DNA from: Macrostomum lignano
Lineage: Eukaryota
Assembly (NCBI GenBank): GCA_002269645.1
Contig: NIVC01002293.1
Span: 1 to 64,000, forward strand
Direction: 5' to 3'
DNA length: 64,000 nucleotides
Each line of letters starts with the position of its first letter. The stretch's first letter is position 1. The position numbers were made by a program, and so were the translations under genes. The notes beneath the pieces were generated by a model that ran no database searches, was not told the origin of the DNA, and was given only the letters and a program-made list of their open reading frames with translations. Positions 27,788 through 47,079 of this stretch are shown here, one piece after another.

Positions 27788-30462
27788 CTGGGTTTTTTTT
27801 TTCGCCAGAGATAAGGTGCGAAATCGCACCTTGTGCCAAATTTCAAGGTGCGATTTTAAGGATCAGAGTGCAATTTCTCTTGAGTCTTGTTTAGAATGTG
27901 AGGGTTTCACGAGAGATATTCAGACAGACATTCGAAACGATCGTCTGTAACTTTAAACAAAATTGACCCGCTTCAACCATCTTTTTGGCAAATACTTACG
28001 CAAGTGTTGGGCGTCAAAAAAGCTTTAATTTATTAACTGAAGTAAAAATCCTTCTGACATACATTGATTTAAAAATTGCTTAGCAACACTAGCTCTGATT
28101 AGAAATCGCTTTACTGTTGACTAAAATTGTTTTGATCGTAGCAGCCTAAAAGCAGATACTGGATTTAAAAATGCTTCGATTTACTCTATACGCATGTCTC
28201 AGCTTTAAAATGACACCTCAGGCGTCGCAAAAGACAGCTTTGATGCTGAGATATTCGACTCTAAACATGCATTGCTTTGCGCAATCTCACATTCAGAAAT
28301 TTCACTGATTTTTTGTCGATATTTGTGCAGCTGCCGTGTCCTTGTTTTTCATCAGAAACTTGTCAAATTCTAGTCATGTCCAGTTTAAACCTGGACTTCT
28401 CTTAAACTGTCTTAAGTATTCGATTTTTAATGATTCCTGCCTTTATATTGCATAGATTGTACCTGAGTCAGTGAGTCTGTGAGTGTACATTTGTACATTT
28501 GGCAACCAATCATGACTTTTTCACCGCTTTGCGGTTCAAATAAATATACGAGTGTACAAGAAACATGTTCCAACTGTTATTGAGAGAAATTGACGTCGCG
28601 TTTATTAACAGTCAGTGGCAATTAATATGAAGCAAATAGTTTATTGTTATGTTTTTACTTTTTTTGCGTGGCAATTCTGCTATCCAAATCGGAATGAGGT
28701 AAGCGGTGGGAATAAAATAAAAAGGAAGAATTTTTTCTACTGTTGTTGCAACCCAATAGCTATATGTACTTCAAACTTTTTAGATTGAACAGGCGATTTC
28801 TAATGTACTGCTAAGCTTTCCAATCCCTACGGACTACAGTAGCAGTTCTTAACTTTTTTTCTGTCTTGACTTCTAGACTCGGAATTCGGAACAACCTAAG
28901 GAGCCACATGAAAATATTTAATTGGATAAAGATATTTTCTAAAAACAGCTCAAGTCGTGACACATCTTCTTCTCACCTCAGTCCATCAACTGCTGCTCCT
29001 TCTGAGACCAAAGCGATCGTGAAAGTAAAACAGATCAGTTTAGATCCCATGGCCATGAATACAACCATTTCAATTGTGAACCTGCTTTGCTTACAAGTAC
29101 GAGCACTAGCCTTCCATTTGATGCCATTAGCTCACTTAACTCTGAAATAGTTCAAGGACGGTTCCAAATGTTGAGATCTGACGTAGAAGCAGTCCAATTT
29201 GTGGAAATTTATCAACTGGACTCCATGAATCACTCCAATGAAAGGCGGCGAATAGCTGTAGAATGCGTAAACAAGTTTAAGTGAGTCACAAAAACCCCAT
29301 TTACTGTAACTACATACACTTGTACATTAGCAAGGCTCCATGCGATGGTTAATAAATGGAGAAGTAGACAAGCATCTGAACAAATGTTGAATAAAAATCA
29401 GTGAAGTTTCCGAATGTGAGTTTGAGCAAAGCAATGTTTAGTGTCGAATATCTCAGCATCAAAGCTGTCTTTTGCAATGCCTGAGGTGTCATTTTAAAGC
29501 TGAGACATGCGTATAGAGTAAATCAAAGCATTTTTAAATCCAGTATCTGCTTTTAGGCTGCTACGATCAAAACAATTTTAGTCAACAGTAAAGCGATTTC
29601 TAATCAGAGCTAGTGTTGCTAAGCAATTTTTAAATCAATGTATGTCAGAAGGATTTTTACTTCAGTTAATAAATTAAAGCTTATTTGACGCCCAACACTT
29701 GCGTAAGTATTTGCCAAAAAGATGGTTGAAGCGGGTCAATTTTGTTTGAAGTTACAGACAATCATTTTGAATGTCTGTCTGAATGGGTCTCCCTAAAACA
29801 CGCCCCGCACCGCCCTGCAGCGCTACACATTAAAACAAATTGGACTATAACTAAAGACACTTCAAAATGCGTTTTCTGTTAAGCTTCAAGTTTTTATTAA
29901 ATTTAGTTTTTTTTACTTTGAAATATAAAATTCGGTGAACAAAAAGTGATATTAATAATAATATTAATAAAATAATAATATTATAATTTAATAATGAAAA
30001 CGAGAATATAAAAAATAATAATATTTAAAAAAATAAATAAAGATATTTATTCCATTACTATTTTAACTTTTCCTTGCAATCAAATACTGCATTGACAAAA
30101 AATGTTATAATGTGTAGCAGTTCGGGGCCCGGTGCGGGGCGTGTTTTAGGGAGCCTTTGTCTGAATATCTCTCGTGAAACCCTCACATTGCTCACATTTC
30201 AGACAACTGGGAATGTATATTTTAATATCTTACATAAGGCTATAGCTATAGGCTATATCGCCTATATGACTTAATAGGATTTAAAGAGTTATTTTGTTTT
30301 ATATTTTAAGGCAGTGCATAAAAAATAGCTTAAGCATGGTTAAGCCTTTAAAGAAAAATGGTTATAAGACCGCACCTAAACCGCACATACTTTTTTAATT
30401 TCAGGGTGCGATTTTAAAATTTAGGGTGCATACGCACACTCTGCGCACAAAAAAAAACCCTG
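27788..30462. mobile_element. Non-autonomous hAT-type DNA transposon with long internal inverted repeats
   Basis: 8-bp TSD GAATGGCA at 27780-27787 and 30463-30470; termini CTGGGTTTTTTT / AAAAAAACCCTG; ~27885-28330 is inverted-homologous to ~29390-30200. Confidence 0.85.
29785..30157. mobile_element. 373-bp MITE with 9-bp TSD (Mutator-like), nested in the hAT element
   Basis: TSD TGTCTGAAT at 29776-29784 and 30158-30166; ~50-bp TIRs (CTCCCTAAAACACGCCCCGCACCG...CTACACATT); AT-rich core. Confidence 0.85.
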
Positions 30463-31424
30463 GAATGGCATCGATAGTATTTTGAAGGATATGCATGAAT
30501 TTTTTTATTAGCCGTAAGTTTTTATAGTGGTTAGTCTAGTAGTAATAGACCTAAATGCTTATAATAGTCGACACGCCTAGGCCTTATAGTCTAAGCCTAG
30601 GGGGGCCTAGCCTAGCCCTAGGCCTATTATAGGCCTATACTCTATAAGCTGTAGATTGGCTTTGGTCTAACCTAGGGCTAGGCTAGGGCTTAGGTTGTTA
30701 TGTTTATCTTATATTCAGCTTATTCTTTTTTAAGTAGTAGAAAGCACAATTTTAATTTAACTAGGCCTAGTCATAACTATTTTAATTAGCCCATGTGCTG
30801 TGCTGTCTATAACTTATAAGCCTAAGTCTAGGCCCTATGTCTATCTTATATCTATGAGTAGGTGTAGGCATCATATGCAAAACTTAGCTGTCTGCTTTCA
30901 ATTCTGTTGTCTATGGCCAAGCTTGGCAATGGATCAAAATATACTATTGGAGGTTGGAGCTAGGTAAATAAATAAATAGGCCCTATTGTTTTTTTATAGG
31001 CCTATTTAGGCCTATATTATTGATTTATTAAATATAGAGTAGTTTTGCTAAATATATTAAAGTGAACCATCTAGTAGTATTTAGCATCTTTAGCTTTGAC
31101 ATCTCATTGATTCTCCCCTTAGTAGGGCCTATAACTAGTATAGGGCCTAAGCCTTGATATCTTAGCAATTCTCCCCAAAAGTCATAACATTATAGTAATT
31201 CCCTATAAACCAAATTGTTCTAGACTATTGACTGAGTTTATTGAATTGTAGATCTGACCTTAAACTTGTATTGCAGGTCCCTTCGCTAATTTATAATATC
31301 CCACCGACTTGTCACCAAGTTGTTGTAGGGTTGCTTCCTCTATCTCTCAGAATCCCACTAAATGCCACAAAATTGTCGTAGGCGTTCTCTCTATTTCTAC
31401 TGGATCCCACAGCCAATATCAAGT

Positions 31425-32242
31425 TATAGCAGGCCTTCTGGCTCTCTCTATTTAATTCTAAAGCTTAATCACTGAACTGTACTAAAACTGCTAAATTTGC
31501 TATTTCTAAGAATCCTATTTCTATACTTATATGTACTTTTATGTTATGGGCTATCGTCGCTACAAGTTACCCTTGGTAGCTTCAGTGCCCGAGCGGCAAG
31601 ACACTGCTGACTACTGCTAAATTCCTAAAATTATCCAGTTTAAACACGGCATTTACCACAGACTGAGGGGTTTCCGGCTTCCTTTATTACTGTCTCTCAC
31701 GACTTAGAACTGCATTACGCTAATCTGAGCAACCTGAAAATTCTCCCTTCCTGGGTAATCCAACCTTTCTATACTGGGTATTCCACCTTTTGTACTGGGT
31801 ATTCCACCCTCTTTGCACTGGGTATTCCACCCTCTTTACTAGGTATTCCACCCTCTTTAATCAGCAATCCCTGCTTATCACTGTACTGGCAAAACGCTTT
31901 CTGCTATCCAACATGGTAACTTAGTCTGCAATACTGCTTCAAAGGACTAATTCAGAAGAACCAAGAAATCTTAATTTCCTGTTAACTGATTAGGAACCCG
32001 AAAGGTTGAGGTTAAACATTCTATTGTGGCCTTATATTTATAGTGGTTACAGTCTCGTCTAATTGGCTCATGTAACATGCATTAAAACAACATCAAATTA
32101 AAACAAAATTATTTCACCTTACTAAAACAAAATTTCTACATTTAAACAAAATAATGCATTAAAACAAAAATATACGGTATTTGTTATTTGGCAGGAATTT
32201 AATTTCGCGAAAAATACTAATTAAAACATAGACCCTTCTACA
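31425..32242 (-). repeat. 3' LTR (818 bp)
   Basis: 22 substitutions versus 39114-39931 and no indels; internal TATA-like TATAAATA, AATAAA, and four ACTGGGTATTCCACC repeats. Confidence 0.97.
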
Positions 32243-32645
32243 ATTGGCTTCCCTGAATATTATTTAGCGAATTTTTAAGTGAACAAAATGATACACAAAA
32301 ATACATATTCATCAAAAACTGAGCAATGTGGTAATGGCATGAAATGATAAATGTAATTGCAAAAAATATACATATACATTCGAAAAGCACTAAATCATCA
32401 AACAACTGTTTACCAGAAATAAAAATTGTGCATGCAGAAGATAAGAAATTTATAAAAGCTACTTCACAAAGAATGAGTACAGAAATTTCATGCAAGGCAA
32501 AGAAAAAATAGCACAAAATAAGCAAATTCAAAATAGCGTTGGCATAGAATTCACGCAGAATAAGCAAGTTTAAAAGAGAAAAGGTATTGTCCTAGTAATA
32601 AAAGTAATTCAATTGCAAAAGTTAGTTCAAATAGTCAAGATGTAC

Positions 32646-33746
32646 TTAATTGCGTTCCAGTTCAAACTCCTTAGGCAGTTGGTCGTGGTACGGCCAGCCA
32701 AGCTGGTCCGCCATCCAGCGGATCTTGATTTGCAGCAATAGTCAATGAAATGTTTGCCCAGCTTGTGTCAGATTGTGCAGCGCGTATTGCACGGCTCGGC
32801 GCCATGCTGCGATTCTTGACTCTAGATCGAACTGCTGCGTCAGCAGGCGCAACACTGGTTTGGCCTGTGTGCACCGACATGGAGTTGGCCGATCGGTGCG
32901 TAGATACGCCATGCGCATCAAATGTCCCTTAAGCATTTTAATAAAGCATTTCAACTGATCATGTTGAGCTCTCGGGATTCGGTCGAGCACGGCTAGGAAG
33001 TCAGATCCTAGACTGAGGTCTGCGGCACTGGCTGAACCGCAAGCTGCCGCATCCTGTGACCGCTTCGGGATCGTGGTTGGCGCTGGCGCTGTCGTCAACC
33101 TTGGCGCAGGCTGCCCGCCAATCGCTGCTGCTGCTGCTGAGGCTGCTGCTGGCCCTTGACGGCTGGCTGTCGCCGATGCTGTTGCTGCCACCCGTCCTCG
33201 CCCGCCAGCTACTGTCGGTGGCTTTGGCTGAATCGGCCGGTACTGACTGGCGAGACATATAGCGCTCTTGGCGCCCTGTGGTTGCCGCTTCATAATGGCC
33301 GGAATGACAGGCACTGGCCTGTTAGCTTGGTCGCTTAACAGCCGCGCTCGGGCCTTTGGATCATGTGGAACTAATGACTGGTTCCCTAGAGCAGGCCGCT
33401 TTGCCGACTGCGCACCTTCTGCCTCAGTTGATGTCCTCTTAATGACTACCGACTTCAGCCGCTTGTTCGGACGGTCCTCTTCATCTTCTACCATCACGGC
33501 ACTGCTGTCGGACCTTACCGTCGCTGCTGCTGCCACCACGGTGTCATCTCCTGGCGACTTCATTGTTGCTGCCATCACAGCGTCGTCACCTGACGTCTTT
33601 GCCAGTCCCGCTGCCATCACGGCGTTGTCTCCTGATGACTTTGCACTCGCACTTCCTTCAATTTCCTCTACACTTCCTACCTCAATGTCAGCTAAAATTT
33701 TGTCTAAAATATCGTCTTCCGCCATTATGTCAATCGTATCTTCCAT
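32646..33746 (-). CDS. Accessory ORF3 of the Gypsy element (334 aa to an in-frame TGA; 366 aa if that TGA was CGA)
   Basis: MEDTIDIMAEDDILDKILADIE..., 13-aa repeats, RPNKRLK, Ala/Pro linker, helical C-terminus; TGA 32744-32742 is followed by 31 open codons to TAA 32648-32646. Confidence 0.7.
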
Positions 33747-33814
33747 TATGGAACTATTGCAATCCAACACAGTCAATCGATACCAAAACGGTTACTAGCT
33801 ATCAACACGACTAT

Positions 33815-33993
33815 AATTGACTTCCTCTCGCCTCTGGGTGTTTGTTTATATAGGCGTGGCACCCCACCCCAGGTGTTGTTTGTTTTAATTTGCCCATCAA
33901 TCCATTTAATCAAAAGCTGAATTTTCATTGGCTGACTGCCCTGATTTCCCAGTTGACCACTCCTGGCCTTCCCAATAGTTGGCTTCTAATTGG
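33815..33993 (-). promoter_or_regulatory. Internal Pol II-like promoter for ORF3 (two CCAAT boxes, TATATAAA, Inr-like TCAATT)
   Basis: CCAAT at 33993-33989 and 33931-33927, TATATAAA 33852-33845, TCAATT 33820-33815, ATG 33746. Confidence 0.55.
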
Positions 33994-34079
33994 CTGCTCT
34001 GATTTCCTTCCCTTACCCAATGAACTCCCACTTGTTTGCTTGCTCTGCGCCTTACCCTTGCTATCAATTCTTCCCTGAC

Positions 34080-36680
34080 TCAGAATTTTAGTCTCTCTAA
34101 TAGGCTCCACACAGAGATTAGCCTTTTCAGATAGCACTGACATCTGTTTGGAGGCTTGGTCTGACTGCGCGTGTTATACCTTTTAGCTGGTATTGCGTCA
34201 TCCTGTCTCTCACTCTGCTCGGTATGCAATATCTCCTCCTTTGACTCACTGTGCTCGCGTGCAACCTCTTCCTCACTTTCTCTCTCTCCCTTGTGCTCAA
34301 GCTCTGATTCCTCACCCTTCTCACTTTCCTCACTCTCTGCTTCGATTTATTCCTCAATCTCCTCTTCTGAGCTCTCACGCTGTGGATTCTCACCTTCGCT
34401 TCCTTCTTCCCTAACTTCTACTTCTGCTCGTATCTCTAAATCGCTTCCTCTTACAGATTCATTTCCATCACGGAGTTTGCACTGCCAATTGATTTGGTCT
34501 TCTTCATCTGATGATGATGACTCTTCTTCTTGTTCACATAACTTCTTAGTTGGTCTAGTTCTGGTCTTCTTCTTGGGCTGGCTTCCCTTGCGTTTCGCCT
34601 TTGCCGCCTGGCTTCCCTTATCTTGAAGCTCTGCAGTCGGCATACTGGGCTGGCCTCCCTTGTCTATTGGCTCTCTGACTGAGTTTGGTACTAATGTCAT
34701 GTTGTCTCTATGCACTATTAGTTTATTGCCTGTTAATTCTCCATTTTCTTCCTTCTGAATTTTAAAGACAACTTCCGAAATATGCTTCAGGCTCATTCCA
34801 TATAAGCATGGTCATAACATGACAGGTTATTTTTACTTATAAAATGAAATCTAATAATAGAATATACTAAACCAATATTTTAAATGAAAGATTATTTTGT
34901 CTAGAATATATTTATAGAGTTTCATATAGATATCATCATTAGTATAGATGCTATTAAACCTTAAATGACACTTATGGTCGTAACGACAGGATTTTTGACA
35001 TATAGAAACTAAAAGGTAAAAGTCTTATAACATTTTTAATTTTTGATATTTTGCAATACATTTTTAAAATTTGACTAAGAACATCTTTAGAAATCATACT
35101 CTTTTATTAGAATATATAAACTCAAAAGGCAACAAAGATACAAAAGAAAAGGCAGCCTTATGGTCGTAACATATTTTTTTCTGTCAATTCAGTAACTTTG
35201 AGGTACTAATACATTAAAAATATAATAGATTATTTGGTCACCAATGCTTTTATCTGATGATGCAAGTACTATACTTTTATCTATAGTTTGTTTCAACCTT
35301 CAAAAGCTTTCTATTTGTTTTTAAAAGGTACAAAATCTTAATGATGTCTTGCTACGAAAAACGTCCAAATTTGTACAAAAATGACTTTTTGCCAATTGAT
35401 AACATAATAATCCAACATTTTACCATTCCTTTATTCTTAGATTGTATATATTGCACAATATAAACATTTGGTAAAAAAATAGGCTAATTAGGCAATGGCA
35501 AGCAAAAATATTGACTTTTTTCTATTTTCCAAATATGTCCATCTTATATGGAATGAGCCTTCAGCACTCTGTAAGCTGCTCTCTTTTTCCTATGAAATTT
35601 ATTTGACTCCTCGTTCTCTAATTGCGGATTATTGATTAATACTAAACTTCCTAGTGCGATATTTTTGGGCTTTTTCTGATTTTCTGCATTTTCCTGTCTA
35701 TGGCTATGCACCTTCTCGTACTTCTCTCTCACGAGCTTCCTTGCACTCTCCAGCCTCTTAGCATGTTTGGCAACATACGTTGGATAATTAGCGTAATTAC
35801 TCGACTTTCTAAGCTCACTATCCATAGGTAAAACTGCTTCTCTTCCGAATAATAGAAAATGAGGTGAATATCCGGTGGTCTGATTCACACTGGTTCTGAC
35901 TGCTACTAATGCTGCTGGGATTAACAGATCCCAATCGCTATGGTCTTTCTCTATTAAGCAAGTAATAATTGATTTAATTTGTTTATTAAATCGCTCTACC
36001 AAACCATTACTTTGGGCATGGTATGGGGTTGTGCACGTATGCTTAACATTATACAAATCACAAAACGAATTAAACTGCTTGCTAGTAAACGCTTTACCAT
36101 TGTCCGTGTGGATCCAATGGCACTGGCCATACTCACTGAACACTCTCTCTTGTAATAACTTGATAATCGTGTCTGCCTTCTGATTATGCATTGGGAAAGC
36201 AAACGGGTATCTCGTGTTACTGTCCACTATAGTTAAAACATACTGGTGCCCTCTCTTGCTTACTTTTGAGATCGGCCCGATCACGTCTATATGCAATCTA
36301 TGAAACAGTTCACTAATTGGAAATGACTGCACTGGCGCCTGAATCTTGTGACCTCTCTTGCTCTCTAGGCATGGAATACACTCTGCCACATATTTCTCTA
36401 CCTCAGTCACTAAACCTGGTCTCCAAACTCTCTCCTTAACTTGCTGGATTGTCTTATCTCTGCCTAAGTGTCCGGCTAGTGGGCTATCATATAGATCGCT
36501 AAGAACTAGCTTGTCCAAGGATCTAGGCAAGACGACTTTCCATTTCTCATCCTCTTCAATAAGGAGCATATCCTTTTCTAGCTTCATTTTCTCATAATGC
36601 TTGCTTAACTGCTTTAACTCTGGTGAAACACTCTCTTGAGATAGGGGAACTAACAGCTTGTCTTGCTTCCATTTGGCCAA
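34080..36680 (-). pseudogene. Gypsy integrase with long acidic C-terminal tail, interrupted by a MITE
   Basis: (H to Y)DSPLAGH...CIPC zinc finger; LHIDVIG / IHTDNG / SNGLVERFN DDE triad. Removing 34790-35559 plus the TSD (774 nt) rejoins YRVLK-HISEVVFKIQ. Premature TAA 34349-34347; end TGA 34082-34080. Confidence 0.9.
34790..35559. mobile_element. 770-bp MITE inserted in the integrase
   Basis: 17-bp perfect TIR GGCTCATTCCATATAAG; TSD TTCA (34786-34789 / 35560-35563; CTTCAG is also possible); AT-rich interior with TATGGTCGTAAC subrepeats. Confidence 0.9.
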
Positions 36681-38074
36681 AGTGCAAATTGCTGAGTCCT
36701 CTCTGAGCTTTTACAATCTGTTCCCTCTTCAAAGGTACTAGCAAATAATCAGTCAATAATTTTTCAACTTTAGGCATATCATTCTTCATGTGTTCAGGAT
36801 CAGTGTCTCGGTTCAGTTGCATAGTGCTAGAACTCAGTGCTGACACATCAGTTCCTTTCACACCTTTCTCTCCCAAGATTAATGACTCGATCCTAGATTC
36901 TAAATCAGTGGGATGCGGAGTCTGCATCTCTCCATCAATAGTTTTCCACGGCTTTCACGTCTTCTCTCATGACACTCACGCCATCTCCATTCACAGATTC
37001 ACTGTCTTTCACGCCTTCTCTACTGGCACTCACGCCTTCTTCGTTCACAGGTTCACTGGCTTTCACACCTTCTCTACTGGCACTCACGCCTTCTTCATTC
37101 ACAGATTCACTGGCTTTCACGCCTTCTCTACTGGCACTCACGCCTTCTTCGTTCACAGGTTCACTGGCTTTCACGCCTTCTCTACTGGCACTCACGCCTT
37201 CTCCAATTGTCTCAATTGTCATCGGAGCTCTATAATTAGCTTCAGAATTTTTTGCTAGGCGCACAGGGATTTGAAGTGCACTATTCGGCAGAATGACTGC
37301 CTTCTCCTGCGTATATACTTGGCAAACCTTTACCAGAAGGTGGGTATATTGCATAGGAATACACGTTCCTTCTTTCAAGATGAGCATGCCTTTTGTTAGA
37401 TGAATGCTCTCACACTGCTCTAGGAAAAACTCCATTCCAAGTATGTTGTCACACTCGTGGCTACATAGTAGGAAATCAATTTCGATCTCAAAGTCTCCGA
37501 ATTTCACTGCAGCACGCACTTCGCCATCTAACTGAACTCTCGTTCCATCGAATGTGGAAACTCTCTTATTCGTCTCCCTAATTTGATCTTGTTCGAATAA
37601 TTTTGACCACACTGATCAGCTTAAGAAATTGTTTCTAGCACCCGTGTCTAATAAAAAGTCTACCTCCTGCTTTTCTATATCGCCTACTACTATTGCCTCA
37701 TAACTTTTATGATTCACTAGTTCTATCTTAGATTTGACAAAAACTTTGCACTTGCTTACCTTCTTTGGCTTTGGTTGGCTTGCTTCGGGTGCAGATTCTT
37801 CTTCTTCTCGGGGCTCATCGGCTGATGCTGACTCGTCAACAGCAGATGCAGGGACAACATATCGCGATGCGGCGGATGCAGATGGTGCAGACGCAGAAAA
37901 TACAGATGGTGCAGACGCAGGTGCATTAAACGCATTATATACAGTTGCATCACGCATATGTCTCTTTTGAATGGGGACAGTTTGCCAACCTTCAGAATCG
38001 CACTTAGAGGCCTTCACTTTGCAATTAAATTTTCTGGAGGGACGTGGCCTCGTCTCTCGGCCCTCGAACTCTAG
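36681..38074 (-). pseudogene. Gypsy pol N-terminus: aspartic protease and spacer; RT/RNaseH absent
   Basis: VDFLLDTGARNNFLS* (TGA 37618-37616), then VRAAVKFGDFEIEIDFLLC...ILGMEF; no YxDD motif before the integrase. Confidence 0.85.
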
Positions 38075-39018
38075 TTTCCCTGATTACCTCGATTACGGAA
38101 CAAGCGGCACTGGTGATCCAAACCAGGCCTTATCGGTCCCGGATTCTGGCAGACTGCACACTTTCCTGGCTGTGGCACAAATGATTTGCCTACAAACTCC
38201 TTGGCCTGGGCCGATACATATTCGAAATTCGTGGCTGAAACGCCGGCTGCTGCTAAGATGCTTGACGTGGCATCTGAGCTGGACATGGCTGAGGCCCTGG
38301 CTTGTACAATGGCTTATACGCCATGAGCTCTTCAATTCTCTTCCTCTGCTGTTCCAGCTCATCCTTCTGCTGTCTCACCAGCTCCTGTAGCTTCTGCTGC
38401 TCATCCTCTCCCTCCTTCACTATCTTCACACCCTTTGTGTGACATATGCCAGGCTGCTTCAATCCTACGCAACATTCTCCTAGCCTCCTGCAGATTAGCT
38501 GGCTGCGCAAAAATTAGCTTCTCCCTAGTGTCTGTTGGGATTCTTACCCTCTTAATAAACTGTTCAACAACTTCTTCCTCGCGCTGTTCAGCGTTCATAT
38601 TCGGAAAAGGCCTTGTGGACAACTCAATCAATGCGTCGGCATAAGCTTCCGCAGTCTCGTTCCTACCCTGCATTCTTCCACGGAATTCCTCCCGAAATTC
38701 TGATGCACTACCTATCCTACCAAACCTCTCTACTAAGTGCTCCTTAAACTCCTCGTAAGTTAGTTCATCAGGCAAATTCAACCTTTGCACTGCAGCAAAT
38801 GCTGTCGCTAGATCTAAGTTAGCTAGTAGCTCAGTCTTCCTATGCTCTACTTCTATTCCTTCTGCTTTGCACCTCTGGTCGAAAGCAGTGAGCTAAATCC
38901 TAATATCCTGACTAGGCGTAAACTTCTGTATCTTCACATGCCTCAATGGTCCTAGCTCTAATCTATTCCTAATCTCCTCAGCTAAAAGTGCAATTGCATC
39001 ATTAATTCCTGCAGCCAT
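38071..39018 (-). pseudogene. Gypsy gag (disrupted)
   Basis: ATG 39018 MAAGINDAIALLAEE...KFTPSQDIRI*LTAFDQ...EEFKEHLVERFG...FRGRMQGRNETAEAYADAL (capsid-like), coiled coil, Cys/His motif, ends QGN*. Stops at 38895 and 38255 plus frameshifts. Confidence 0.88.
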
Positions 39019-39100: not shown

Positions 39101-39110
39101 GCTGCCACCA
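39101..39110 (-). other. Primer binding site TGGTGGCAGC (tRNA-Leu type)
   Basis: 3 nt inside the 5' LTR; complementary to the 3' end ...GCUGCCACCA of eukaryotic tRNA-Leu(AAG/UAG). Confidence 0.8.
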
Positions 39111-39113
39111 AGT

Positions 39114-39931
39114 TGTAGCAGGCCTTCTGGCTCTCTCTATTTAATTCTAAAGCTTAATCACTGAACTGTACTAAAACTGCTAAATTTGCTATTTCTAAGA
39201 ATCCTATTTTTATACTTATATGTACTTTTATGTTATGGGCTATTGTCGCCACGAGTTACCCTTGGTAGCTTCAGTGCCCAAGTGGCAAGACACTGCTGAC
39301 TACTGCTAAATTCCTAAAATTATCCAGTCCAAACATGGCGTTTACCACAGACCGAGGGGTTTCCGGCTTCCTTTATTACTGTCTCTCACGACTTAGAACT
39401 GCATTACGCTAATCTGAGCAACCTGAAAATTCTCCCTTCCTGGGTAATCCAACCTTTCTACACTGGGTATTCCACCCTTTGTACTGGGTATTCCACCCTC
39501 TTTGCACTGGGTATTCCACCCTCTTTACTGGGTATTCCACCCTCTTTAATCAGCAATCCCTGCTTATCACTGTACTGGCAAAACGCTTTCTGCTATCCAA
39601 CATGGTAACTTAGTCTGCAATACTGCTTCAAAGGACTAATTCAGAAGAACCAAGAAATCTTAATTTCCTGTTAACTGATTAGGAACCCAAAAGGTTGAGG
39701 TTAAACATTCTATTGTGGCCTTATATTTATAGTGGTTACAGTCTCGTCTAATTGGCTTGTGTAACATGCATTAAAACAACATCAAATTAAAACAAAATTA
39801 TTTCACCTTACTAAAACAAAATTTCTATGTTTAAACAAAATAATGCATTAAAACAAAAATATACGGTATTTGTTATTTGGCAGGAATTTAATTTCGCAAA
39901 AAATACAAATTAAAACATAGACCCTTCTACA
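39114..39931 (-). repeat. 5' LTR (818 bp)
   Basis: TG...CA termini; 97.3% identical to the other LTR. Confidence 0.97.
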
Positions 39932-40484
39932 CTTGTATTACTTTTTTAATTTATTATAGTATATATACTCAGCAACATTGCCACCCATTTGCCCCAGTAA
40001 GCAGTGTCTTTCAACTAGTATCTATCACCTGGCCAACCATTTTGATATTAAAAAATGCTTTAAAAAATAATAAAAACTAGATAGAATCTTTAATCCTAGT
40101 GTTTTGCAAGGAAAAAATAATTTTTTTAAATTTTTAATATTAAGAATTAATTCAAGATTTAAATTCATAAGTGCTATGAGATAAAAATACATTTAAAATA
40201 ATTAATCATGTTGAAAGGTATCATGGATAAACCAGGTTACAAATTGGTAAATAATAATATTTTTTGCATATATCAGGTTAGCATCACATTGAATATCAAG
40301 AAGGGAAGTTTTATATTAACAGGTTTTTTCACTAAAAGTAAGCAATATGTATGTAGAATCTAATAATCTACAAAATAATTTTTTTGGTAATTCTAAGTTG
40401 TTAGATTCTATTGAAATGAAAAACAAAGTCTCTTGTCACAGGTTATGTTTTGTCTTATTATTTCACTTCACTGGCAGCTGAGCC

Positions 40485-43242
40485 ATGGCCTCCAGTGATG
40501 ATGGGCAGCCGCCAGCCAAGCAAGCCAAGAAGGCGGCCCATCTGCCACAGGCAGCAGCCGCCATCTTCAAGCATGGCCCCGGGCCAGCCAGTTCCCACAG
40601 CAGGGCTGAGGACTGGAGCCCCAATGGGTACACCAGCCCACTGCCACCCACGTGCCTGTCGCGGGTGACCAGGGAACTGCTGGACCTGGTCACCAACCCG
40701 CTGCCTGGCATAGCAGCTGTGCAGGATGAAGACGACCTGGGCAGGGTGCACGCCCTGCTCATTGGCCCCAGCGGCACGCCATATCAGGGTGGCTTCTTTT
40801 ATCTTGTGCTGCGAGTCACCGAGCAGTATCCCATGCAGCCGCCCAAGGCCCAGCTCATGACCACTGGTAGCGGGCAGGTGAGCCCAGCTCAGCGACCTTT
40901 CGAACTCTTTTTGATTTCCTCTTGCAATTCAAAACTTTATTGATCCAAATCAAACTTATTGATGCTTATGTTAATGATCCCCACACTCAATAATCCCCGA
41001 ACTCATTGATCCCTGACACTAATGATCCCCAATCTCATTAATCCCCGAACTCATTAATCCCTGACACTAATGATCCCCAATCTCATTAATCCCCGAACTC
41101 ATTAATCCCTGACACTAATGATCCCCAATCTCATTAATCCCCGAACTCATTAATCCCTGACATTAATGATCCCCAATCTCATTAATCCCCGAACTCATTA
41201 GTCCCTGACATTAATGATCCCCAAACTCATTCGATCCCACAGTTGATAGCCTCAAGTTTCATGATCTCTAAATTTAACCATCCCCAAGCTTCGAGTTCCC
41301 CGGAAAGTTTATGCAAATTTCCGGTAGGTTCCTGGGCTTCTGGGAATTATTTGTAACACTGTTGAAACACTTGTTCTCCGTCGCACAGGTGCGCTTCAAC
41401 CCGAACCTGTACAAGAACGGCAAAGTTTGCCTGAGCATCCTGGGTACCTGGGAGGGCCCCTGCTGGACTCCGGCTATGGGCCTCCGCTCCGTCCTGCTCT
41501 CTGTGCAGTCGCTGATGAACGAAAAGCCCTACCGAAACGAGCCCGGCTTCGCTAGCGCCAGCGTCAAGAAGTGCGACGAGTATAACGACATTGTGCAGCA
41601 TGAGACTCTTCGCGTGGCCGTCTGCGAGATGATGGAAGGCCGGGTGCCCATGCCGCAGTTGCTCAGACAGGTGGCTGATGGCATTCCGGGATTGGGGTTT
41701 CAGAACGGGATCAGGGATTGGGATTTCAGCATGGGGTCAGTGATTGGGATTTCAGAATGGGGTCAGGGATTGGGATTTCAGCATGGGGTCAGGGATTGGG
41801 ATTTCAGAATGGGGTCAGGGATTGGGATTTCAGCATGGGGTCGGGGATTGGGATTTCAGAATGGGGTCAGGGATTGGGATTTTAGCATGGGGTCAGGGAT
41901 TGGGATTTTAGCATGGGATCAGGGATTGGGGTTTCAGCATGGGGTCAGGGATTGGGATTTCAGCATGGGATCAGGGATTGGGATTTCAGCATCGGATCAG
42001 GGATTGGGATTTCAGAGTGGGATCAGGGATGGGATTTCAGAATGGGATCATGGATTGGGATTTCAGCATCGGATCAGGGATTGGGATTTCAGAGTGGGAT
42101 CAGGGATGGGATTTCAGAATGGGATCATGGATTGGGATTTCAGCATGGGGTCAGGGATTGGGATTTCAGCATGGGGTCAGGGATTGGGATTTCAGCATGG
42201 GGTCAGGGATTGGGATTTTAGCATGGGGTCAGGGATTGGGATTTCAGCATCGGATCAGGGATTGGGATTTCAGAGTGGGATCAGGGATGGGATTTCAGAA
42301 TGGGATCATGGATTGGGATTTCAGCATCGGATCAGGGATTGGGATTTCAGAGTGGGATCAGGGATGGGATTTCAGAATGGTATCATGGATTGGGATTTCA
42401 GCATGGGGTCAGGGATTGGGATTTCAGCATGGGGTCAGGGATTGGGATTTCAGCATGGGGTCAGGGATTGGGATTTCAGCATGGGGTCAGGGATTGGGAT
42501 TTCAGCATGGGGTCAGGGATTGGGATTTCAGCATGGGGTCAGGGATTGGGATTTCAGCATGGGGTCAGGGATTGGGATTTCAGCATGGGGTCAGGGATTG
42601 GGATTTCAGCATGGGGTCAGGGATTGGGATTTCATCATGGGGTCAGGGATTGGGATTTCAGCATGGGGTCAGGAATTGGGATTTCAGCATGGGGTCAGGG
42701 ATTGGGATTTCGGCATGGGGTCAGGGATTGGGATTTCAGCATGGGGTCAGGGATTGGGATTTCAGAATGGGATTAGGGATTGGGATTTCAGCATGGGGTC
42801 GGGGATTGGGATTTCAGAATGGGATCAGGGATTGGGATTTTAGCATGGGGTCAGGGATTGGGATTTCAGAATGGGATCAGGGATTGGGATTTTAGCATGG
42901 GGTCAGGGATTGGGTTTTCAGAATGGTATCAGGGATTGGGATTTCAGCATGGGGTCAGGGATTGGGATTTCAGCATGGGGTCAGGGATTGGGATTTCAGC
43001 ATGGGATCAGGGATTGGGATCTTGACTCACACCGAACTGCCCTCTCCCTCCAGGAGATGCGCAGCGCTTTCGGGCAGCACTACCAGTACTACACAGACCT
43101 GTGCAGGCGCCACATCAACCGAGACGGCAAGCCGATGCGAGACCCGTTCAACCCAGGCCAGGCCAAGTTCAGCTACGGTTCCGTGTTGAAACGCCTGGAG
43201 TCTGTCAACCAGCAGCTGTCGGCCGGGGCCGGCTCATCCTAG
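40485..43242 (+). CDS. UBE2Z: Ubiquitin-conjugating enzyme E2 Z; exons 40485-40877, 41389-41670, 43054-43242 (287 aa)
   Basis: [17 protein letters not shown]...[17 protein letters not shown]|[21 protein letters not shown]...NEPGF...[14 protein letters not shown]...|EMRSAF...MRDPF, with the catalytic Cys; all phase-0 GT-AG junctions. Confidence 0.95.
40975..41225. repeat. 48-bp higher-order minisatellite built from ~16-bp subunits
   Basis: ATCCCCGAACTCATTAATCCCTGACACTAATGATCCCCAATCTCATTA units in UBE2Z intron 1. Confidence 0.9.
41685..43020. repeat. 26-bp G-rich minisatellite (GGGATTGGGATTTCAGCATGGGGTCA)n
   Basis: Fills UBE2Z intron 2. Confidence 0.97.
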
Positions 43243-45130: not shown

Positions 45131-45933
45131 GCTGGCTGTTGTGTTTGGGCTTTACGGCCTAGTATGCAGTCTCTCTCAACAAGCACCCCATCTGACTTTT
45201 AACGACTCGCGGAGCACAATGGCAGCCCGTGGTCGCCACATTTTTTAGGAATGGGCCAGCGACGCCTCCCTGCTTGCGTCCGGATGTCCGGGGCCCCCTG
45301 CAGCTAGGCGCGAGGTCAAGACTGCGTCTTCAATAATTTTTGTCAAACTTGGCTATAAATTTTAGCACAGCTTCATTTGCAATTTGGGGGTCCAGAAGGT
45401 GAAGCATTGACAATTTAATTGCTAAAAATCGACCTGCAGTGAAAATTGCAGCATCTACTTGATTGTTGCCATGAATATTGATCCAATCAGCACAGCAGCT
45501 CAGTAGTAAACTAAGCTTCAATTTCGTGCGCGGCCGCATTCATGCCCTGCGATTCACATCCATGATGGCACAGAGTGCACATGCCTGACGATTGGACAGT
45601 CAGGGCCGCGGTACACCCTGTGTGAGCGTGTGCTTGATCAGTTCGTGTCTGCGTACGAGCGTACAGTATTGGCGCTCGTATGTGTGATCAAAAGTCGCTG
45701 GTGTCACAGAACGACGTCGCAGATAAACGTTTCTGCATTGCAGCTCAGCAACAAATAGTTGAATTCTACTGAACTGCATAGTGAATTTACAGATGCCATC
45801 CTGGGCGAGCTCAGTCCAGGCTGGTCAGATCTGATTGGCCATCCAGGCAGTTTCTCTCCCTGTTTAAAATCGGCTCCCCCGGCAACTGCAGCCGAGATTC
45901 GCGCCCTCCTCTCTCTCTCAGCACCCAGCAGCC

Positions 45934-47079
45934 ATGCAGAGCCTGTCTCTCATCGCGGTGATCCTCTACAACTCGGTCCTGGCCGCGATCTTTGCTGTTG
46001 GCATCGTCGGGAACTGCCTGGTGATGGGCGTCATCTGCCGACAGCAGCACAGCAGCCGTTCCGTGACCAGCCTGTACCTGATGCACCTGGCGCTGGCTGA
46101 CAGCCTTCACCTGCTGTCAATTCCTCCGCTGATGTACACCAGCATCGTGGGCCAATGGAACTGGGGCTGGCTGCTGTGCAAGGTGTACTACATGCTAAAC
46201 TACACCAACTGGACAGTGTCAATCTACATAATCACCGCCATGAGCTTCGATCGCTACAAGGCGATGGTCTCGCCGTCGGCCAGACTGAGGACCCGAGCCT
46301 TCGCCAGCGTTGTCCTCGCCGCCATCTGGCTGATGGGCGCCCTGGTCATCAGCCCGACCTACCTGTGCGCCAGGGTGGAGTACTTCAACGACACCGTGCC
46401 GCACTGCACGCACACATCGCCGGATGCCTTCTCGGACGATCGGCTCAACGACACCAGATCCGACGCTGACTCGGACGAGGCCTCACGGCCGGCCAGTCCT
46501 GTGTACAAATTCTTCTCACACCCGGCCTACTTCATGCGCTACATGTTCGTGACCGGCTGCGTTCTGCCCGGCCTCCTGCTGTGCCTGTTCTACTCGCTCA
46601 TCACCTACCGCCTGTACCTGGCCAAGAGGGCTCAACGGAACGGCGGCGGCGAAGCGGTTCAGAGCTCAAGCGCGGCGGCCAGCACGCAATCGCAGGACCG
46701 GCTGGGCAAGGCCACCCTGCTGGTGGTTGCCGTGGTGATTTTCTATCTGGGCTGCTCGCTGCCGTACTGGGTGCATGTGAATGTCAGCCTGGCCACCGAG
46801 GCACCGATCACCTACTTGACCATCGTCAGCTCGCACGTGACCTCCCTGCTGACCTACGCCAGCAGCGCCGGCAATCCAATTCTCTACGCCTTCCTCAGCG
46901 GCCCGTTTCGCTCCGCCATGCGCGACCTCATGGACATCGGGCAGCTCAGGGCTCCCGTTGCCGACGCTGAAGACGCCGACGGGGCAAATGTCGGCGCCGG
47001 GGCGGCGCGAAACGCCGACGACGTGGGGGCGGCGGGCGCCGGCGCCATGCCGACAATAACAATCACCACAGACAGGTGA
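45934..47079 (+). CDS. Class A neuropeptide GPCR, somatostatin/allatostatin-C/opioid receptor-like (probable extra 3' exon to ~47655)
   Basis: GIVGN (TM1), LALAD (TM2), W.WG..LCK, MSFDRY, SLPYW (TM6), YASSAGNPILYAFLS (TM7). Strong donor AG|GTGAG at 47076 overlaps the stop codon. Confidence 0.9.
   Translation: MQSLSLIAVILYNSVLAAIFAVGIVGNCLVMGVICRQQHSSRSVTSLYLMHLALADSLHLLSIPPLMYTSIVGQWNWGWLLCKVYYMLNYTNWTVSIYIITAMSFDRYKAMVSPSARLRTRAFASVVLAAIWLMGALVISPTYLCARVEYFNDTVPHCTHTSPDAFSDDRLNDTRSDADSDEASRPASPVYKFFSHPAYFMRYMFVTGCVLPGLLLCLFYSLITYRLYLAKRAQRNGGGEAVQSSSAAASTQSQDRLGKATLLVVAVVIFYLGCSLPYWVHVNVSLATEAPITYLTIVSSHVTSLLTYASSAGNPILYAFLSGPFRSAMRDLMDIGQLRAPVADAEDADGANVGAGAARNADDVGAAGAGAMPTITITTDR

What the first reader, a model, noticed from the sequence alone, without database searches (positions are those of the whole stretch)
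32646..33746. Gypsy element carries an unrecognised extra sense-strand ORF between pol and the 3' LTR
Seen: a 334-aa ORF (366 aa if TGA 32744 is a decayed CGA; the frame stays open for 31 more codons). It has an acidic N-terminus, four ~13-aa repeats (SGDDAVMAA..), an NLS-like RPNKRLK, an Ala/Pro linker and a ~110-aa helical C-terminal domain with CRC. There is no signal peptide or TM segment, so it is not env. By eye it keeps many CpGs while the neighbouring integrase is CpG-poor. Inference: a nuclear accessory protein, for example an anti-silencing factor or captured host domain. That would be a little-described addition for animal Gypsy elements and fits the evident C-to-T pressure on this family.
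Basis: partly seen in the sequence, partly recalled or inferred. Interest (0 to 1): 0.75.

Follow-up and report, generated by a model that had tools for sequence, protein, structure and literature searches.

The report
Flatworm retrotransposon gene with own promoter
A broken copy of a virus-like jumping gene, most likely from the flatworm Macrostomum lignano, carries an extra gene that matches no known protein family, has a distant relative beside a sister element's capsid gene, sits behind a likely promoter of its own, and likely makes a nuclear protein that would switch on the element's other genes.

Summary
[quoted passage not shown] The element is a decayed Ty3/Gypsy copy that lacks RT-RNaseH; its nearest relatives are Macrostomum lignano proteins. 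ORF3 has no hydrophobic segment and no Pfam, PDB or fold match, so it is not env-like. Its C-terminal domain is 40% identical over 70 aa to a stretch in an M. lignano gene model that also holds a sister family's gag (45%) and protease (32%): long-term constraint is likely. New here: the 334-bp spacer before it looks like a complete Pol II promoter (four CCAAT boxes, CACCC box, TATA, initiator; post hoc 1 of 10,000 shuffles) and shares a 14-mer with the LTR's repeated U3 motif. Best reading: an accessory gene with its own promoter, encoding a nuclear regulator, most likely a Tas-like activator (0.4); RNA export and anti-silencing are rivals. The CpG argument is weak, CRC is not conserved, recent host capture is unlikely. 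Expression, dN/dS and function are untested. Extra non-env ORF3s are known in animal Gypsy elements; this family and layout were not found in print.

The parts
39114..39931 (-). 5' LTR (818 bp, TG...CA); U3 holds 4 copies of a 9-mer motif, then CCAAT and TATA boxes
39101..39110 (-). Primer-binding-site-like sequence 3 bases after the LTR (tRNA-Leu type by recall, not tested)
   Evidence: sequence
37620..39018 (-). gag, broken by stops and at least one frameshift
   Evidence: weak Retrotrans_gag and Ty3_capsid hits; 45% over 174 aa to P0004
37163..37700 (-). Aspartic protease and following linker
36796..37168 (-). Junction where RT-RNaseH is missing (about residues 139-769 of the nearest pol, P0005); holds an array of 54-bp repeats
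35562..36698 (-). Integrase (H2C2 and rve domains), open frame
34785..35558 (.). High-copy MITE-like insertion in the integrase C-terminal region; the empty site stands in 4 of 4 runs laid
34080..34784 (-). Integrase C-terminus and acidic tail of pol, with one internal stop
33747..34079 (-). Promoter-like spacer: CCAAT boxes at 34021, 33993, 33976, 33931; 14-mer shared with LTR U3 at 33892; CACCC box 33870; TATA 33852; initiator-like 33820; no ATG between initiator and start codon
   Evidence: pattern tests chosen after viewing; transcription not shown
32742..33746 (-). ORF3, 334 aa: acidic amphipathic N-terminus (1-35), three clear 13-14-aa repeats (about 36-80), basic motif (93-98), Ala/Pro linker, conserved C-terminal domain (about 244-312 and beyond)
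32646..32741 (-). 31 further in-frame codons after the stop, coding-like in GC content
32243..32645 (-). U-rich 3' untranslated stretch ending in a weak purine tract
31425..32242 (-). 3' LTR
31285..31424 (-). Degenerate array of about 53-bp units (LTR-end-like plus PBS-like) directly after the 3' LTR; relation to the element unexplained

Best explanation
ORF3 is an extra open reading frame of a flatworm Ty3/Gypsy element that is likely a true accessory gene, likely transcribed as a short unspliced RNA from its own internal promoter, and predicted to encode a nuclear protein that would activate the element's promoters, working like foamy-virus Tas. Steps: (1) shown: ORF, position, strand, lack of a membrane segment, homology of the C-terminal domain to a second M. 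lignano element-derived sequence. (2) Inferred: host CCAAT- and TATA-binding factors start an RNA about 72 bases before the ATG, which ends in the 3' LTR. (3) Inferred: the basic motif brings the protein into the nucleus; the acidic amphipathic N-terminus recruits co-activators; the conserved helical C-terminal domain provides targeting or oligomerisation. (4) Speculative: the motif present once in the internal promoter and four times in U3 is the shared response element, giving a positive-feedback switch. This copy is dead (no RT, broken gag) and would not move by itself. Odds: real accessory gene 0.85; own promoter 0.75; nuclear regulator of some kind 0.65; transcriptional activator specifically 0.4.
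For: Length beyond chance. A full HMMER scan of 1.84 billion representatives with the last 100 residues gave 2 hits, both M. lignano gene models: P0003 holds pieces of a close copy; P0004 holds a 40%-identical 70-aa stretch (score 126 against at most 55 in 300 shuffles) and, in the same model, a gag 45% and a protease 32% identical to this element's, so the domain has diverged no more than the core genes. In laid contigs the 3 displayed pieces wholly inside ORF3 show 23 substitutions and 0 gaps in 880 bases, whereas the one piece wholly in the 3' UTR shows 13 gaps in 369 (32 of 1862 pieces displayed). Promoter anatomy: 4 CCAAT boxes (366 of 10,000 shuffles), TATA plus initiator at the usual spacing (45 of 10,000), both together 1 of 10,000; the 3 upstream ATGs all lie before the initiator; no polypyrimidine splice acceptor matched in the spacer. 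Shared 14-mer with U3: 17 of 5,000 shuffles, and 1 of the 184 other window tiles, reach 14. Residues 11-19 fit a recalled nine-residue activation-domain pattern and 95-98 a recalled NLS pattern. Precedents: Tas activates both the LTR and an internal promoter (abstract starts); Tor env and Grande gene23 use internal promoters.
Against: No RNA evidence: no holder is on record as RNA and contigs cannot show starts. No dN/dS. The promoter and shared-motif tests were chosen after seeing the sequence; the shared motif is AT-rich and could bind a host factor or nothing. The activation-domain and NLS patterns are low-specificity (the first matches 3 places in the protein). No DNA-binding fold was recognised; both models are poor. 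P0003 and P0004 are chimeric gene models; in P0004 the domain lies before gag and after a tyrosine-recombinase piece, so its place between pol and LTR in the sister family is not shown. The acidic N-terminus was not seen in the distant homolog (only the C-terminal domain aligns). One contig joint skips 33372-33795, so some copies lack the ORF's 5' part. ORF3's open frame in this copy is no sign of selection after insertion (integrase is open too).
Confidence: 0.4

Rival explanations
1. ORF3 is a nuclear RNA-handling factor, like C. elegans Cer1 CERV or retroviral Rev: it binds the element's genomic RNA and licenses its export or stability.
For: Same position and also non-env, lineage-restricted and nuclear in Cer1 (Introduction). 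Basic, disordered middle region (14 K/R in residues 93-160) and a Leu-rich helical C-terminus.
Against: CERV comes from a spliced mRNA; no intron or splice acceptor was seen here. No structured RNA family in the element. No sequence likeness reported by any search.
Confidence: 0.2
2. ORF3 is an anti-silencing factor that counters DNA methylation or piRNA silencing of its own family.
For: The family is under heavy CpG decay; M. lignano has low-level 5mC with DNMT1 and DNMT3 (passage in PMC11292947). A repeated family-specific motif in U3 and in the spacer could be a binding site. A promoter apart from the LTR could escape LTR silencing.
Against: CpG retention is not specific to ORF3 (gag-N 0.92) and ORF3 shows CpA/TpG excess. 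No likeness to any chromatin or silencing protein. Partly overlaps the best explanation and cannot be told from it by sequence.
Confidence: 0.15
3. ORF3 is a passenger: a piece of another mobile element or an old captured gene with its promoter, carried along without function for this element.
For: In P0004 the homolog follows a tyrosine-recombinase (DUF3504) piece and precedes gag. ORF3 is more GC-rich (0.56) than gag-pol (0.41-0.50). A deletion of its 5' part is seen in one contig.
Against: Both homologs found are element-derived pieces, none a host gene; GC3 is element-like, not host-like; no inverted ends, poly-A tail or duplication flank it (sequence); divergence matches gag.
Confidence: 0.12
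4. ORF3 works outside transcription control, as a capsid- or integrase-associated accessory protein (nuclear import of the pre-integration complex, or target-site choice).
For: Basic motif; the unexplained LTR-end/PBS array and the P0004 order hint at tandem or targeted insertion.
Against: A separate strong promoter is not needed for a virion-associated factor; no targeting domain recognised.
Confidence: 0.1
5. ORF3 is an env-like or FAST/sORF2-like fusion protein.
For: Position after pol is the usual env position.
Against: Best hydropathy window 1.1, acidic N-terminus, no myristoylation-type start, 334 aa. Flatworm env genes reported so far are HSV-gB-like and lie between gag and pol (passages).
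Confidence: 0.03

Closest known systems
M. lignano Ty3/Gypsy families BOX15_Mlig011037 (P0005) and Mlig004203 (P0006); LTR families surveyed in PMC12801592
   Same: Integrase 68% and 50% identical; one clade with support 100; order PR-RT-RH-IN in the relatives.
   Different: This copy lacks RT-RH. Whether those families carry ORF3 is not shown (protein records only). The survey is RT-anchored; the parts read (1-2 of 6, Table S1, supplement search) mention no third ORF. Its one Gmr1/Osvaldo family with sequences (Mlig-id38) aligns in about 6.4 kb with 337-bp LTRs, which leaves little room for such a unit (inference).
Foamy-virus Tas/Bel1 (Spumaretrovirinae)
   Same: Gene at the 3' end, expressed mainly from an internal promoter, activating LTR and internal promoter (abstract starts): the working model here.
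   Different: Retrovirus with env; no sequence or fold likeness found; activation is untested here.
C. elegans Cer1 CERV (PMC10309623)
   Same: Animal Gypsy, non-env ORF between pol and 3' LTR, no homologs outside the genus, nuclear.
   Different: CERV is spliced from gag-frame exons and exports genomic RNA; ORF3 appears intronless with its own promoter.
Oikopleura Tor3b/4b env (PMC4402516)
   Same: Sense ORF3 transcribed from an internal promoter, in Tor4b from the spacer after pol.
   Different: Tor ORF3 is a transmembrane glycoprotein.
Maize Grande gene23 and Retand additional ORFs (PMC7264820, PMC11963269)
   Same: Accessory gene between pol and 3' LTR, own promoter, nuclear protein, function unknown.
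   Different: Plant elements, antisense orientation, TRP28/Smc-type domains not found here.
Bdelloid LTR ORF3s (PMC5408684) and MDG1 sORF1/sORF2 (bioRxiv 2025.03.14.642691)
   Same: Non-env additional ORFs in animal Gypsy elements.
   Different: Those are enzymes (DEDDy, GDSL), small membrane fusogens or short ORFs; none matched here.

Membership tests
Ty3/Gypsy LTR retrotransposon | Two LTRs with TG...CA ends, PBS and purine tract | tested here: met
   3' LTR end has a transition; no clean target-site duplication found
Ty3/Gypsy LTR retrotransposon | gag, protease, integrase with H2C2 and rve; RT-RH before IN | tested here: met
   RT-RH absent from this copy but in that order in the two nearest relatives
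Gmr1-like elements (strict) | Integrase upstream of RT | tested here: not met
   nearest relatives are RT-first; window integrase lies outside the IN-first clade (support 99) in a quick tree of 75 rows
Gmr1/Osvaldo cluster of PMC12801592 | Placement in the RT tree | not testable with these tools
   no RT in this copy and no named references at hand
env / env-like ORF3 | Signal peptide and transmembrane anchor | tested here: not met
   hydropathy maximum 1.1, acidic N-terminus; hydropathy only
env / env-like ORF3 | Likeness to F-type, gB-type or class II fusogens | tested here: inconclusive
   no Pfam or PDB hit; fold searches used poor models of the C-terminal part only
sORF2/FAST-like fusogens | Short protein with myristoylation motif, TM segment, polybasic tail | tested here: not met
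Foamy-virus Tas | Sequence homology | tested here: not met
   no Pfam hit at E up to 5; no viral protein among the 2 hits
Foamy-virus Tas | Expression from an internal promoter | tested here: inconclusive
   promoter anatomy present; transcription start not shown
Foamy-virus Tas | DNA binding and trans-activation of LTR | not testable with these tools
   needs reporter and binding assays
Cer1 CERV | Spliced mRNA joining gag-frame exons to the 3' ORF | tested here: inconclusive
   no acceptor pattern in the spacer; no GT-AG joint among 15 of 23 joints shown; contigs only
Cer1 CERV | Required for genomic RNA export | not testable with these tools
   bench test
Transduced host gene | Host homolog and host-like codon usage | tested here: not met
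   an ancient capture is not excluded
BESS/MADF-type regulators (considered from memory) | Pfam BESS or MADF match | tested here: not met
   0 families at E up to 5 for the protein and for its C-terminal 127 aa

The most novel reading that the evidence does not exclude
A flatworm Gypsy lineage has independently evolved a foamy-virus-like two-promoter circuit: an internal TATA/CCAAT promoter makes a new family of trans-activator or anti-silencer that binds a motif shared by the internal promoter and the LTR, letting the element, and RT-less partners that keep the gene, switch themselves on in a host that methylates them.
Probability: 0.2. Interest if true: 0.75.

Novelty: new variant of a known kind. 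Interest (0 to 1): 0.5.

Why it matters
Most LTR retrotransposons are thought to rely on host factors for transcription, and the few accessory proteins with known roles in animals are fusogens, enzymes or an RNA exporter. A self-encoded nuclear regulator with its own promoter would be a rare case of complex-retrovirus-style control in an animal retrotransposon. M. lignano has transgenesis, LTR reporter assays and 5'-end RNA data, so the claim is cheap to test. If it is only a conserved ORF of unknown function, it adds one more orphan ORF3 family.

Tried and rejected
Whole-protein word search: 0 of 8,000 candidates. Two-sequence profile against longer proteins: 0 of 1,322; it missed even P0003, so it is insensitive. 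Atlas: no usable hit for the whole protein or residues 238-334. Pfam 0, PHROGs 0, PDB sequences 1 hit at E 0.85. Structure models pLDDT 44.8 and 50.4; best Z 5.2 (rmsd 4.0, 107 aligned) and 4.7 (rmsd 3.9, 60 aligned), Foldseek best E 1.6 and 6.7: generic helices only, no evidence of a new fold. No related loci in viral or metagenome contigs. ORF3 profile against the 81 proteins held: only itself, P0003, P0004. No RNA holder listed. One run guessed to be RNA (X13) is deeper over the pol tail, ORF3 and LTR than over gag-integrase, but depth of contigs cannot rank genes and the runs were found with this stretch, so it was not used. Rfam: 1 chance-level hit. Gmr1 domain order as the reason for the missing RT: rejected. 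BESS-like motif seen by eye: rejected. The 11-mer CCAAT context shared by LTR and spacer is not beyond chance (259 of 2,000 shuffles). The careful tree did not finish; the quick tree was used, with 3 of 77 relatives left out for short alignments. Earlier-findings look-ups by sequence and place returned nothing.

Full report
Observation. Read with X at that stop, the frame continues 31 codons to 32646. Only 1 of 10,000 Markov simulations of the region (5 sets of 2,000) gave a frame that long in any of six frames. The protein has an acidic N-terminus, three clear 13-14-aa repeats and a weak fourth, KRLK at 95-98, an Ala/Pro-rich linker and a C-terminal domain; the best hydropathy window is 1.1.

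The element. Two 818-bp LTRs (39931-39114 and 32242-31425) are identical at 804 of 827 aligned bases. Between them lie a broken gag, protease, integrase with H2C2 and rve domains, a MITE-like insertion whose empty site stands in 4 of 4 laid runs, an acidic pol tail ending at 34080, a 334-bp spacer, ORF3 and a U-rich UTR. The integrase's two best relatives among 77 hits are Macrostomum lignano pol proteins, 68% and 50% identical, with the order PR-RT-RH-IN; this copy lacks about residues 139-769 of the nearest one. In a quick tree of 75 rows the three form a clade (support 100) outside the integrase-first Gmr1 clade. The host is therefore inferred to be M. lignano or a very close relative; the sequencing runs are labelled only 'organism A'. 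The copy cannot move by itself. Of 22 LTR differences, 13 fall on 38 CpG-type bases and 9 on the other 785, which fits methylation-driven decay; a passage in PMC11292947 reports low 5mC with DNMT1 and DNMT3 in this species.

Is ORF3 a gene? The word-index search, Atlas, Pfam, PHROGs and PDB gave nothing. A full HMMER scan with the last 100 residues gave 2 hits, both chimeric M. lignano gene models. P0003 splices pieces of a close copy (75% over 36 aa, plus a longer N-terminal stretch) onto a Brix gene. P0004 holds a 70-aa stretch 40% identical to residues 244-312 (score 126 against a maximum of 55 in 300 shuffles), followed by a gag 45% and a protease 32% identical to this element's. The simplest reading is that a sister Gypsy family carries a homolog that has diverged no more than gag, which needs long-term constraint. 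The caveat is that in P0004 the domain comes before gag and after a tyrosine-recombinase piece, so its position in that family is not shown; tandem elements, an upstream position or another element class are all possible. Contigs of 4 of 24 listed runs cover ORF3; the 3 displayed pieces wholly inside it have 23 substitutions and no gaps in 880 bases, the one piece wholly in the UTR has 13 gaps in 369 (32 of 1862 pieces displayed, so this is modest support). Against: one contig joint skips 33372-33795. The open frame in this copy is not evidence of selection after insertion, since about 0.8 new stops are expected and integrase is open too. Whether the stop at 32742-32744 is natural is unsettled; GC content stays coding-like to 32646, but that place is not among the 40 of 968 variant rows shown.

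CpG and origin. CpG o/e is 0.92 against 0.55 in integrase. Against an amino-acid-aware null the ratios are 0.99 for ORF3, 0.92 gag-N, 0.77 protease and 0.57 integrase, and ORF3 has CpA and TpG excess (the null uses each gene's own third-position bases and is imperfect). So CpG retention is not peculiar to ORF3. GC3 is 0.51, nearer the element (0.42-0.44) than host exons (0.74-0.85 in 4 of 4 stretches), which argues against recent capture. The CRC motif is not in the distant homolog.

The spacer. It holds four CCAAT boxes at -275, -247, -230 and -185 from the ATG, a CACCC box at -124, TATA at -106 and an initiator-like word at -74; the three upstream ATGs all lie before the initiator, and no polypyrimidine acceptor matched. 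In 10,000 dinucleotide shuffles 366 had four CCAAT boxes, 45 had the TATA-initiator pair and 1 had both; only 6 such TATA-initiator pairs occur in the window. These patterns are recalled consensus motifs chosen after viewing the sequence, so the numbers overstate significance. The spacer also shares a 14-mer with LTR U3, whose 9-mer core occurs 4 times in each LTR, once in the spacer and 3 times elsewhere in the window; 17 of 5,000 shuffles and 1 of 184 other tiles reach 14. Transcription was not shown: no RNA holder is on record and only contigs were available.

Mechanism. A separate promoter, an acidic amphipathic N-terminus fitting a recalled activation-domain pattern, a basic motif, a long flexible linker and one conserved helical domain are the layout of a transcription regulator. 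I commit to a Tas-like activator of the element's own promoters (0.4). RNA export as for Cer1 CERV (0.2), anti-silencing (0.15), passenger (0.12), capsid or integrase accessory (0.1) and fusogen (0.03) are the rivals. Structure gave no help: models had pLDDT 44.8 and 50.4 and fold searches returned generic helices.

Comparison with what is known. What I saw of each paper: PMC12801592, parts 1-2 of 6 of the text, Table S1, a term search of 5 supplements and part 1 of 8 of Additional file 5; PMC10309623, passages and Introduction; PMC4402516, passages and Discussion; PMC5408684, abstract and outline; PMC7264820, PMC11963269, PMC13524379, PMC11292947, PMC5730564 and bioRxiv 2025.03.14.642691, passages; foamy-virus papers, search listing and abstract starts only; VANC, recalled. 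Each ingredient has a precedent: non-env ORF3s in animal Gypsy elements, internal promoters for ORF3 (Tor env), and a nuclear accessory protein with its own promoter (Grande gene23, antisense, plant). Searches showed no description of a third ORF in Macrostomum elements or of this sense, non-env, own-promoter layout in an animal Gypsy. The authors' earlier classification paper, Repbase and Dfam were not visible to me and could already annotate the ORF.

Verdict. Observation confirmed, interpretation partly supported. New variant of a known kind, interest 0.5.

Noticed in passing
window 31285-31424 (minus strand): Directly after the 3' LTR lie degenerate units of about 53 bp, each an LTR-end-like stretch plus a PBS-like stretch. 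Position 31372 has depth 96 in X2 and 36 in X13, and one X2 contig carries a further, different unit, so the array seems multi-copy and variable. No clean target-site duplication; the 8 bases before the 5' LTR recur about 150 bases past the 3' LTR. Possible tandem elements sharing an LTR, or repeated insertion at LTR-PBS junctions.
   Followed up: partly
window 36950-37219: An array of 54-bp coding-frame repeats sits at the junction where RT-RNaseH is missing; joints in other contigs suggest copy-number variants. Whether the RT-less form is a family of its own was not settled.
   Followed up: partly
window 34785-35558: Very high-copy MITE-like insertion with 24-33-bp inverted ends (contig depth 650-13,000 in three runs and about 100 in the fourth, against tens for the element).
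   Followed up: partly
window 27788-30462: Element flanked by an 8-bp direct repeat (hAT-like by recall), containing a nested element with 358-bp inverted arms at 27911-28268 and 29434-29791.
   Followed up: no
window 31751-31858 and 39440-39568: 21-23-bp tandem repeats inside each LTR.
   Followed up: no
window 30463-31284: AT-rich stretch with many short palindromic TAGGCCTA-type words and two purine tracts on the minus strand; possibly the remnant of a non-coding partner element.
   Followed up: no
window 40482-41600 and 45868-47079: Host exons resembling a ubiquitin-conjugating enzyme and a rhodopsin-type GPCR (by eye); the first exon of the former is CpG-poor (o/e 0.39), unlike other host exons. 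Introns are filled with minisatellites throughout the window.
   Followed up: no
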